From NCBI GenBank assembly GCA_043821365.1, contig JBDRCX010000006.1, positions 32,001 to 96,000 of the forward strand: DNA of 64,000 nt, in the 5' to 3' direction. Every line of letters begins with the position of its first letter. The stretch's first letter is position 1. Positions 3,714 through 26,450 of the stretch are shown in pieces. The notes below the pieces were generated by a model. The model did not search any database. It worked only from the letters and a program-made list of their open reading frames with translations, and was not told where the DNA came from. The translations under genes were made by a program, and so were the position numbers. The stretch is from Candidatus Micrarchaeota archaeon (GTDB taxonomy: Archaea; Micrarchaeota; Micrarchaeia; Anstonellales; Bilamarchaeaceae).

Positions 3714-3840
3714 GGGCTCGTAGCTCAGTCCGCCTTTTAGAAAAAGGCGGCCCAAAACTGGGTCGCTATATAGGTGGGAGAAACAGCAGAGCACTCGCCT
3801 TGCACGCGAGGGGCCGAGGGTGCGAGTCCCTCCGAGTCCA
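3714..3840 (+). tRNA. tRNA-Ala(TGC) with a ~54-nt D-loop insertion
   Basis: Acceptor GGGCTCG/CGAGTCC-A with G3:U70; D-stem GCTC/GAGC; anticodon arm CTCGC-CTTGCAC-GCGAG (anticodon 3801-3803); T-arm GAGGG-TGCGAGT-CCCTC; 59 nt (3729-3787) between G15 and A21. Confidence 0.9.
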
Positions 3841-5126: not shown

Positions 5127-5241
5127 TAGCGGGGGGTAGATTTGAACTACCGGTCCCTGGGTTATGAGCTTCACCCCTAATATTCTTTAAATAAAATGGA
5201 ATATCAGGTCCAGTGGGAACTCCAAGCTTCCCTACCCCGCT
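5127..5241 (-). tRNA. Initiator tRNA-Met(CAT) with a 40-nt intron at non-canonical position 30/31
   Basis: AGCGGGG acceptor (A1:U72), three G:C pairs in the anticodon stem after splicing, CTCATAA loop, TTCAAAT T-loop; intron 5170-5209 folds a 10-bp helix plus a 4-bp CACT/GGTG helix between 3-nt bulges. Confidence 0.92.
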
Positions 5242-26010: not shown

Positions 26011-26100
26011 GGACTTGTTGTGAACTTCCAACTGAACGACGAATCGTTCAGTGGACCATAGAACGAATACTTCGTTCTGTAGGTCGTTCACTTCTCGTCC
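26011..26100. other. 90-bp Y-shaped (three-way junction) inverted-repeat element
   Basis: GGAC/GTCC and GTGAAC/GTTCAC closing stems; hairpins 26031-26052 (9 bp) and 26054-26085 (14 bp with a bulge). Confidence 0.7.
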
Positions 26101-26147
26101 AAATTTCTTGAGTATAGCTAATAGAAGAACAAAAATAAAATGAAATT

Positions 26148-26407
26148 TGGACTTGAGGGGACTCGCACCCCTGGCCTCTCCGATTTTCTATTTACCATGA
26201 AATTGATAATTGCATGGCCGCATTGAACAGAGTCCAATAGCGTAGATATGCGAACGGAGCGCTCTGCTTCCCGCTTTTAGGAAAAGCGGGACCAAACCCC
26301 GCAGTTCATAAAAGATAATGCTCCAACCTTTTTCCTAAAAAGGTTGGACCAAAAACTAATTTTTGATCCAAACTTTTTTTCAAAAAGTTTGGCTGAGCTA
26401 CAAGCCC
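26148..26407 (-). tRNA. tRNA-Ala(CGC) with a 65-nt canonical 37/38 intron and a ~122-nt D-loop insertion
   Basis: Acceptor GGGCTTG/CAAGTCC-A with G3:U70; anticodon arm CTCCG-TTCGCA|T-CGGAG (anticodon 26252-26250); intron 26184-26248 with a relaxed BHB; T-arm AGGGG-TGCGAGT-CCCCT; 127 nt (26266-26392) between G15 and A21. Confidence 0.85.
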
Positions 26408-26450
26408 TTCTGATAAATAATTAGGAGAAGATAATTAAGACTTATCTAAG

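What the first reader, a model, noticed from the sequence alone, without database searches (positions are those of the whole stretch)
26148..26407. tRNA-Ala(CGC) whose D-loop holds three copies of a hairpin micro-element
Seen: 127 nt separate G15 from A21 (normally ~5). The insert contains CCCGCTTTT-AGG-AAAAGCGGG (26270-26290), CCAACCTTTTT-CCT-AAAAAGGTTGG (26323-26347) and CCAAACTTTTT-TTC-AAAAAGTTTGG (26368-26392). Each has an (A)(C/T)CAAA(AA) tail, and two are arranged as an inverted pair. The gene also has a 65-nt canonical intron. A GGAGC in the insert can pair with G10-C13 to give a BHB-like motif at 15/16, but I cannot find BHB motifs that remove the whole insert. Established: ARMAN/DPANN tRNAs have non-canonical introns, and Rickettsia palindromic elements insert into RNA genes. 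Inference: repeat-derived tRNA introns, or tolerated D-loop expansion segments.
Basis: partly seen in the sequence, partly recalled or inferred. Interest (0 to 1): 0.8.

Follow-up and report, generated by a model that had tools for sequence, protein, structure and literature searches.

The report
Alanine tRNA gene with three introns
This is a real alanine tRNA gene of a tiny groundwater archaeon (Micrarchaeota) whose swollen D-loop most likely holds two adjacent enzyme-spliced introns two bases apart; it is an extreme but recognisable case of a known kind of gene.

Summary
A tRNA-Ala(CGC) gene lies on the minus strand at 26148-26407, with 127 nt between G15 and A21, three perfect stem-T4/5-N3-A4/5-stem hairpins and a 65-nt anticodon-loop intron.

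About 25 orthologues in the same genus, two of them intron-free, fix the mature sequence. Its GG-less 7-nt D loop and odd T loop TGCGAGT are genus traits, not decay.

The insert resolves into two bulge-helix-bulge (BHB) introns:
- D1 (26318-26392, 75 nt, position 15/16) has a perfect 4-bp helix between G10-C13 and an internal GAGC.
- D2 (26268-26315, 48 nt, position 17/18) is homologous to the sole D-loop intron of tRNA-Ala(UGC) in two relatives, where the BHB is strict.
- Two exon bases (U16 A17) lie between them.

Removing all three introns gives a 72-nt perfect cloverleaf. D2's motif exists only after D1 is spliced out, so the order is forced.

The genome encodes an ARMAN-2-type three-unit splicing endonuclease and RtcB. 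Independent metagenome assemblies reproduce the DNA. No RNA data exist.

The hairpins are inverted-repeat end-caps of an intron family shared across tRNA genes. This scan had already noted that family elsewhere in this genome. It is a new member of a known kind, moderately interesting as a snapshot of intron turnover.

The parts
26148..26407 (-). tRNA-Ala(CGC) gene, 260 nt; 72 nt after splicing
   Evidence: Manual parse. Orthologues in about 25 genomes of the same genus. The spliced product folds to a perfect cloverleaf at -28.7 kcal/mol.
26393..26407 (-). Exon 1, tRNA positions 1-15 (acceptor 5' strand, U8 A9, D-stem 5' strand, A14 G15)
   Evidence: Identical to, or one compensated change from, the orthologues.
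26318..26392 (-). Intron D1, 75 nt, position 15/16. It comprises hp1 (26368-26392), the linker helix (26348-26367), hp2 (26323-26347), then GAGC (26320-26323) and AT.
   Evidence: Strict BHB: H = G10-C13/GAGC with 4 of 4 Watson-Crick pairs, and bulges AG|C and AT|T. The unconstrained MFE of the local context is exactly this four-way junction. Homologous introns ending GAGC-AA| occur in G024, G028 and G007.
26316..26317 (-). Micro-exon U16 A17 (2 nt) between D1 and D2
   Evidence: Follows from the BHB cut sites of D1 and D2. G001 has the same layout (T A between its two D-loop introns), and G024 has a 3-nt micro-exon CAG. This is an inference and has not been shown on RNA.
26268..26315 (-). Intron D2, 48 nt, position 17/18. 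It contains hp3 (26270-26290) and ends CGGG-AA|
   Evidence: It aligns with the only D-loop intron of tRNA-Ala(UGC) in G012 and G023 and with D2 of G001. There the BHB is strict (H TCAG/CTGG 4 of 4, h' 8-10 bp) and the product is the conserved D loop. Here H is 3 of 4 and h' is 6 bp. The same 3' cap followed by AA| ends the anticodon-loop introns of tRNA-Thr(UGU) in this genome and of Ala(CGC) in L018 and L020.
26249..26267 (-). Exon, tRNA positions 18-37 (rest of D loop, D-stem 3' strand, anticodon stem 5' strand, anticodon CGC, A37)
   Evidence: Identical 16-nt block GAGC..CGCA in all orthologues.
26184..26248 (-). Canonical intron, 65 nt, position 37/38
   Evidence: Boundaries come from intron-free orthologues. 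BHB: H 3 of 4 Watson-Crick pairs, outer helix is the 5-bp anticodon stem, bulges CA|T and AA|T.
26148..26183 (-). Exon 3, tRNA positions 38-73 (anticodon stem 3' strand, variable loop, T arm with T loop TGCGAGT, acceptor 3' strand, discriminator A73; no encoded CCA)
   Evidence: The T loop is conserved in all orthologues. The T-stem difference from them is compensated, A49:U65 versus G49:C65.
26131..26140 (-). T-rich trailer, a possible terminator
   Evidence: Sequence only. Inference from the established oligo-T termination of archaeal RNA polymerase.
26431..26438 (-). TTAATTAT, a possible TATA box 24-31 nt upstream of position 1
   Evidence: Sequence only. Inference, not tested.

Best explanation
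This is a functional tRNA-Ala(CGC) gene of a Micrarchaeota (DPANN) archaeon. It is interrupted by three protein-spliced (bulge-helix-bulge) introns at positions 15/16, 17/18 and 37/38.

Splicing mechanism (inferred):
- The precursor first folds so that G10-C13 pair with an intronic GAGC. This presents the two D1 cut sites in 3-nt bulges, with hp1, the linker helix and hp2 as the inner arms of a four-way junction.
- The three-unit epsilon2-type endonuclease cuts, and RtcB ligates G15 to U16.
- Only then are U12-G15 and U16 A17 contiguous, so the D2 motif can form (U12-G15 with CGGG, CUUUUA with UAAAAG). D2 is then removed, leaving the D loop AGUAGCA.
- The anticodon-loop intron is removed independently.

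The hairpins are the inverted-repeat end caps (hairpin plus AUCAAAA tail at the 5' end, its reverse complement at the 3' end) of an intron family. That family is shared among many tRNA genes of this genus.

Shown: the gene, its orthologues, the motifs, intron homology, the enzymes and the reproducibility of the DNA. Inferred: actual cleavage, the order of splicing, the exact D2 boundaries and expression.
For: (1) Ala identity: G3:U70, A73 and anticodon CGC.
(2) About 25 orthologues exist, and two are intron-free (L013, L023). They fix the mature sequence. Our exons differ only by a compensated T-stem pair and, under this model, C16 to U.
(3) D1 has H 4 of 4 Watson-Crick pairs with 3-nt bulges. 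The BHB fold is the unconstrained MFE of nt 8-100.
(4) The same cut rule reproduces the conserved D loop in every relative with a D-loop intron: L014, L017, L018, L012, L021, L022, L025, L002, and the in-window Ala(UGC).
(5) D2 aligns with D-loop introns of G012, G023 and G001, which have strict BHBs.
(6) The 3' cap plus AA| is used at known 37/38 splice sites.
(7) The spliced product is a perfect cloverleaf.
(8) The 393-aa EndA matches PDB 4fz2 over its full length at E 3.5e-132. The ARMAN-2 epsilon2 enzyme cleaves strict and relaxed BHBs at non-canonical sites (PMC3239211, PMC12397907). RtcB is present.
(9) No second Ala(CGC) exon set was found in the assembly.
(10) Independent assemblies reproduce the locus.
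Against: - No RNA evidence of any kind exists.
- D2's helix H has an A:G mismatch in this species. Its BHB conformer is predicted about 10 kcal/mol less stable than the fold with hp3.
- The hp3 stem covaries with the G012/G023 homologue at the expense of H, so the hairpin itself seems to be what is selected.
- The product AGCAGCA (a single 123-nt block out, C16|..|A17) fits the orthologues even better than AGUAGCA. Sequence alone cannot exclude it.
- BHB-like 3-4-3 patterns are common by chance in this T/A-rich insert: 224 candidates in 160 nt. The motif argument therefore rests on homology and on the product.
- T5 runs on the sense strand should favour premature termination.
- tRNA-Ala(UGC) at window 3714-3840 could read GCG, so the gene is not strictly essential.
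Confidence: 0.68

Rival explanations
1. The gene is functional but has other splice sites. The whole 123-nt block between C16 and A17 leaves as one intron, or as two introns with shifted borders, giving the D loop AGCAGCA identical to the orthologues.
For: Comparison with intron-free orthologues places the insertion exactly between C16 and A17. AGCAGCA is the conserved D loop in nearly all relatives.
Against: No BHB of any quality forms at C16|..|A17: CTCA versus GCGG gives 2 of 4 pairs (reasoned and the rule validated). D1's perfect helix and the homologous introns in G024, G028, G007, G001, G012 and G023 all point to cuts at 15/16 and 17/18. G001, G028 and G007 also carry U16.
Confidence: 0.12
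2. This is a decaying or silent gene. Introns piled up because tRNA-Ala(UGC) already reads GCG, and the transcript is no longer processed correctly.
For: D2's BHB is degraded (A:G mismatch) and thermodynamically disfavoured. T5 runs lie in the introns. An Ala(UGC) gene is present. There are no expression data.
Against: All 72 exon positions are intact, and the only stem change is compensated. The gene is kept in about 25 species of the genus. Multi-intron tRNA genes are the norm in this genome. An identical sequence occurs in samples of other studies.
Confidence: 0.08
3. This rival concerns origin. The hairpin-plus-tail units are ends of a small non-autonomous palindromic DNA element (MITE- or PATE-like). 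The element inserted into the D loop and into an older intron, and splicing merely tolerates it.
For: D1 is almost a pure inverted repeat: cap, 4-nt centre, reverse-complement cap. Near-identical caps occur in about 29 places in at least 16 genomes and in introns at different positions of different tRNAs. Some hairpins lie outside known tRNA genes. hp3 covaries as a hairpin.
Against: No target-site duplication was seen. The single Y1 transposase and the TnpB remnant in the genome show no link to these hairpins. The variable stems with a constant T/A core look like structural selection rather than copies. In G028 and G024 the dispensable arm of hp2 is lost while the arm used for the BHB is kept.
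Confidence: 0.2
4. The hairpins are expansion segments that stay in the mature tRNA.
For: Palindromic elements retained in RNA genes are known in Rickettsia (from memory).
Against: A 127-nt D loop would abolish D-loop/T-loop contacts. The insert is bounded by valid splice motifs and is absent from orthologues.
Confidence: 0.02

Closest known systems
Disrupted tRNA genes of Candidatus Micrarchaeum acidiphilum ARMAN-2 and their epsilon2 splicing endonuclease (Fujishima et al. 2011, PMC3239211; Hirata et al. 2012, PMC3488258; Miyata et al. 2025, PMC12397907)
   Same: Same phylum. The three-unit endonuclease is the same type, with a full-length match to PDB 4fz2. Introns sit at non-canonical positions. 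ARMAN-2 pre-tRNA-Pro(GGG) has two adjacent introns in one loop, at 53/54 and 59/60.
   Different: Here the two adjacent introns are in the D loop and only 2 nt apart. The second motif exists only after the first is spliced. The introns carry hairpin-plus-tail inverted-repeat caps, which those papers do not describe.
Multiple-intron tRNA genes and transposed tRNA introns of Thermoproteales (Sugahara et al. 2008; Fujishima et al. 2010; as summarised in PMC4033280 and PMC4090602)
   Same: There are up to three introns per gene. Similar intron sequences occur in different tRNA genes and positions. BHB or relaxed BHB motifs lie at the junctions.
   Different: The phylum and the endonuclease type differ, (alpha-beta)2 versus epsilon2. 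Here orthologues within one genus range from 0 to 4 introns, which gives presence/absence pairs for individual introns.
Rickettsia palindromic elements and other MITE-like repeats inserted in RNA genes
   Same: Short palindromic repeat units are found inside structural RNA genes.
   Different: Those elements are retained in the product. Here the units lie within introns bounded by splice motifs. No transposition hallmarks were found.

Membership tests
tRNA-Ala | G3:U70 wobble pair in the acceptor stem, A73 discriminator, alanine anticodon | tested here: met
   G3:T70, A73 and CGC read directly from the sequence. Conserved in the orthologues.
Archaeal BHB (endonuclease-spliced) tRNA introns | 3-nt bulge, 4-bp helix, 3-nt bulge at the exon-intron junctions, cut 2|1 in each bulge | tested here: met
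   D1: 4 of 4 Watson-Crick pairs, and the motif is the free MFE. Anticodon intron: 3 of 4 plus the 5-bp outer helix.
Archaeal BHB (endonuclease-spliced) tRNA introns | The same motif for the second D-loop intron (D2) | tested here: inconclusive
   H is 3 of 4 with an A:G mismatch, h' is 6 bp, and the conformer lies 10 kcal/mol above the hp3 fold. The motif is strict in homologues of G012, G023 and G001.
Archaeal BHB (endonuclease-spliced) tRNA introns | Excision restores a canonical tRNA | tested here: met
   The 72-nt product is a perfect cloverleaf, and its D loop has the same length as in intron-free orthologues.
Archaeal BHB (endonuclease-spliced) tRNA introns | The host encodes a splicing endonuclease able to cut non-canonical sites, and an RNA ligase | tested here: met
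   393-aa three-unit EndA, E 3.5e-132 to 4fz2. RtcB is present.
Archaeal BHB (endonuclease-spliced) tRNA introns | Cleavage and ligation observed on RNA | not testable with these tools
   No RNA holder is listed for this DNA.
Transposed or shared tRNA introns (Fujishima 2010 type) | Closely similar intron sequence in different tRNA genes or positions | tested here: met
   D2 is shared by Ala(CGC) and Ala(UGC) of different species. The hp3-type cap occurs in Thr(UGU) and Ala(CGC) anticodon introns. There are about 29 near-identical cap copies in the genus.
MITE / PATE-like DNA transposon | Terminal inverted repeats | tested here: met
   The 5' cap and the 3' cap are reverse complements.
MITE / PATE-like DNA transposon | Target-site duplication, or a cognate transposase linked to the ends | tested here: not met
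   No duplication flanks D1 or D2. The single Y1 TnpA and the TnpB remnant are not associated with this hairpin type. This was a limited test.

The most novel reading that the evidence does not exclude
The hairpin-plus-tail caps are the ends of a small mobile palindromic DNA element. It seeds new tRNA introns wherever the neighbouring exon bases can pair with its G-rich end (CGGG, or GAGC-like) to make a BHB. On this reading, this locus and its 0-to-4-intron orthologues record individual intron gains, including one intron landing 2 nt from another.
Probability: 0.2. Interest if true: 0.7.

Novelty: new member of a known kind. Interest (0 to 1): 0.42.

Why it matters
How archaeal tRNA genes acquire non-canonical introns is an open question. 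A review of the field explicitly asks for sequence 'snapshots' of insertion events (PMC4033280).

This gene and its orthologues give such snapshots. The same tRNA carries from 0 to 4 introns within one genus. Individual introns can be matched between species and between isoacceptors.

Two introns only 2 nt apart must be removed in a fixed order. That makes a clean substrate for testing how the broad-specificity epsilon2 endonuclease chooses its sites.

There is also a practical point. Standard tRNA finders miss this gene and others like it, so the tRNA complements of such genomes are under-called.

Tried and rejected
- ARAGORN (default) and Rfam (gathering and E-value modes) find no tRNA here. 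This is blindness of the tools, not absence.
- My first idea was a TGGT micro-exon giving a standard GG-containing D loop. The intron-free orthologues refute it.
- The best-scoring BHB in a blind enumeration has hp3 as the inner helix, with H GTTT/AAGC. I rejected it because it deletes G22 and leaves a 13-nt D loop. The enumeration gave 224 'good' candidates in 160 nt, so motif search alone is uninformative here.
- The helix CAGT/ACTG is present in the MFE after D1 removal, but it gives no valid tRNA.
- A single intron from the D1 5' site to the D2 3' site would leave a 5-nt D loop and has no helix H.
- Pairing of hp2 with hp3 through their complementary loops AGG/CCT (12 bp) leaves an unremovable remainder.
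- No RNA holder is listed for this DNA, so expression and splice junctions could not be examined.
- An IS200/IS605 or PATE link was looked for. There is one Y1 transposase and one TnpB remnant, and neither is linked to these hairpins.
- Sugahara 2007 (PMC1852824) is not held. Whether ordered splicing of neighbouring introns was described there could not be checked.
- A literature search found no description of hairpin-capped introns in Micrarchaeota.

Full report
**Observation**

On the minus strand of 26148-26407 the sequence reads as a tRNA.
- The acceptor stem is GGGCTTG/CAAGTCC, with G3:U70 and discriminator A73.
- U8 A9 is followed by the D-stem 5' strand GCTC, then A14 G15.
- Then come 127 nt, then A21 and the D-stem 3' strand GAGC.
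- The anticodon stem is CTCCG/CGGAG, with loop TT-CGC-A interrupted by 65 nt.
- The variable loop is AGGCC, and the T arm is AGGGG-TGCGAGT-CCCCT.

ARAGORN and Rfam report nothing here.

The hairpin type (variable outer stem, T4-5, 3-nt loop, A4-5) occurs 43 times as a perfect hairpin in the 1.2-Mb genome. Ten shuffles gave 0-2 each. At least half of the copies lie within 150 nt of recognised tRNA loci, which cover 1.3% of the genome.

Contigs from runs of two studies other than the likely source sample cover the D-loop insert without a single difference. Assembly error is therefore excluded.

**Organism and enzymes**

The window is part of a 1.2-Mb, 36% G+C, 87%-complete genome.

Its 393-aa splicing endonuclease matches PDB 4fz2 over its whole length (E 3.5e-132). 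That is the three-unit epsilon2 enzyme of Ca. Micrarchaeum acidiphilum ARMAN-2. It cleaves both strict and relaxed BHB motifs at non-canonical positions (PMC3239211, PMC3488258, PMC12397907).

The closest relatives of this protein are all labelled Micrarchaeota, and several are labelled Bilamarchaeum or Bilamarchaeaceae. A second 163-aa endonuclease-domain protein and RtcB are also present.

**Orthologues fix the mature sequence**

A DNA search of 40 genomes of the genus found the exons of this tRNA in most of them. I parsed 22 orthologous genes, plus four more by eye.

Two are uninterrupted 72-nt genes (L013, L023). They show that the D loop is the 7-nt AGCAGCA without the usual GG, and that the T loop TGCGAGT is a trait of this tRNA across the genus. 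Neither feature is therefore decay.

Our exons differ from these by one compensated T-stem pair and, under the model below, by C16 to U. My early idea of a TGGT micro-exon restoring a standard D loop is refuted by these genes.

**The cut rule and its validation**

In a BHB the four exon bases that end 2 nt before the 5' cut pair with intron bases -6 to -3. Each 3-nt bulge is cut 2|1.

Applied to every relative with a D-loop intron, this rule returns the conserved D loop. All of the following give AGCAGCA:
- L021 (182 nt, 15/16, helix GCTC/GGGC)
- L022 (43 nt, 15/16)
- L014 (31 nt, 18/19, CAGC/GTTG)
- L012, L017 and L018 (42 nt, 18/19)
- the Ala(UGC) gene in this same window at 3714-3840 (15/16, GCTC/GAGA)

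G028 and G007 (15/16, GCTC/GAGC) give AGTAGTA.

In G024 the rule yields two D-loop introns. The first is homologous to ours (78% identity). The second has a perfect helix CAGC/GCTG that exists only once the first is out.

**Resolution of the insert**

D1 runs from 26392 to 26318 (75 nt).
- G10-C13 pair with the intronic GAGC (4 of 4 Watson-Crick pairs). The bulges are AG|C and AT|T.
- Between them, hp1, the 9-bp linker helix and hp2 form the other three arms of a four-way junction.
- This is the unconstrained minimum-free-energy fold of nt 8-100.

After D1 the transcript reads GCTC-AG-TA followed by 48 nt and then GCA-GAGC.
- That 48-nt stretch (D2, 26315-26268) aligns along its ends with the only D-loop intron of tRNA-Ala(UGC) in G012 and G023, and with the second D-loop intron of tRNA-Ala(CGC) in G001.
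- In those genes the BHB is strict (TCAG/CTGG, inner helix 8-10 bp). In G012 and G023 excision gives exactly AGCAGCA.
- In G001 the intron is a minimal 31 nt, and its single hairpin is the inner helix.
- By homology our cuts are TA|T and AA|G, leaving U16 A17 as a 2-nt micro-exon and the D loop AGUAGCA.
- The same 3' cap (GGTTTGGT, hairpin, AA|) ends anticodon-loop introns whose 3' cut is known: tRNA-Thr(UGU) of this genome, and Ala(CGC) of L018 and L020.

Removing D1, D2 and the 65-nt canonical intron gives a 72-nt RNA that folds into a perfect cloverleaf (-28.7 kcal/mol).

**Order of splicing (inference)**

D2's helix uses U12-G15, and its bulge uses U16 A17. These are contiguous only after D1 has been cut out and the exons ligated.

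D1's helix uses G10-C13, so the two motifs are also mutually exclusive. The structure therefore enforces D1 first and D2 second, and the dinucleotide is never released.

**Weak points**
- There is no RNA evidence.
- In this species D2's helix has an A:G mismatch. The BHB conformer is predicted about 10 kcal/mol above the fold containing hp3.
- The hp3 stem has changed in a compensated way relative to G012 and G023 (CCAGC/GCTGG to CCCGC/GCGGG), although this weakens the BHB helix. The hairpin itself therefore appears to be under selection.
- The alternative product AGCAGCA (block excision between C16 and A17) cannot be excluded from sequence, though no motif supports it.
- BHB-like patterns abound by chance in this T/A-rich insert (224 in 160 nt). 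The argument rests on homology and on the product, not on motif counting.
- T5 runs on the sense strand are unexplained.

**What the hairpins are**

On the tRNA strand the 5' cap is a hairpin followed by ATCAAAA. The 3' cap is its reverse complement, GTTTTGGT or GTTTTGAT followed by a hairpin.
- 5' caps start 1 nt after the 5' cut.
- 3' caps end 2-6 nt before the 3' cut.
- The last bases of the 3' cap supply the intron strand of the BHB helix.

This layout recurs in anticodon-loop introns of the orthologues (L003, L006, L018, L020) and in other tRNA genes of this genome (Asn, Thr, Pro).

D1 is little more than two caps back to back. D2 has only a 3' cap. The three hairpins are thus parts of two introns, not three insertions into a loop.

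Cap sequences near-identical to hp3 occur about 29 times in at least 16 genomes of the genus. Earlier notes of this scan on other parts of the same genome reached a similar reading of the caps. I tested the points I use here myself.

**Comparison with what is known**

Multi-intron tRNA genes, non-canonical positions, two adjacent introns in one loop (ARMAN-2 tRNA-Pro, 53/54 and 59/60), and similar introns in different tRNA genes (Thermoproteales) are all described (PMC3239211, PMC4033280, PMC4090602).

I did not find the following described:
- the D-loop pair 2 nt apart with forced order
- the inverted-repeat hairpin caps
- the 0-to-4 intron range among orthologues of one genus

**Verdict**

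This is a new member of a known kind. Its moderate interest lies mainly in being material for studying intron gain and the site choice of the epsilon2 endonuclease.

Noticed in passing
window 3714-3840 (+): tRNA-Ala(UGC) gene missed by ARAGORN and by Rfam at gathering score. It has one D-loop intron at 15/16 with a 5' cap hairpin (CCGCC..GGCGG) and ends GAGA-AA|C. Excision gives the D loop AGCAGCA.
   Followed up: partly
L002 1501-1910 (G024:C54): The orthologous tRNA-Ala(CGC) carries four BHB introns, at 15/16 (79 nt), 18/19 (30 nt), 37/38 and 59/60 (helix TGCG/CGTA). Fujishima et al. 2011 quote a maximum of three per archaeal tRNA gene.
   Followed up: partly
L013, L023 versus L002, L021, L018 and others: Orthologues of this one tRNA gene range from 0 to 4 introns within a single genus. 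D-loop introns at 15/16, 17/18 and 18/19 have unrelated sequences, which implies fast gain and loss.
   Followed up: partly
L008 678-736, L011 1407-1465, L012 1365-1423, L029 13-136: One or two pseudo-copies of the tRNA 5' exon (GGGCTTG[C/T]AGCT..) plus a hairpin lie 59-62 nt upstream of the real 5' end. In L029 they form a tandem 62-nt repeat. Their meaning is unknown.
   Followed up: no
window 26016-26100: Two hairpins of a second genome-wide family (NTGAACG-type stems, 4-nt loops) lie about 100 nt downstream of the tRNA, for example ACTGAACGA-CGAA-TCGTTCAGT.
   Followed up: no
G000:C6:673872-676544 (outside the window): The RtcB match is split into residues 23-50 and 45-426, about 1.4 kb apart, within one 910-aa open frame. 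This looks like an intein-containing RtcB.
   Followed up: no
window 26268-26392 (-) and other tRNA introns: Runs of five or six T on the sense strand inside the introns should act as archaeal termination signals, yet they are conserved across the intron family.
   Followed up: no
window 5127-5241 (-): ARAGORN calls a tRNA-Met(CAT) with a 40-nt intron only in intron mode (genome C6 37127-37241). The default run on the window missed it.
   Followed up: no
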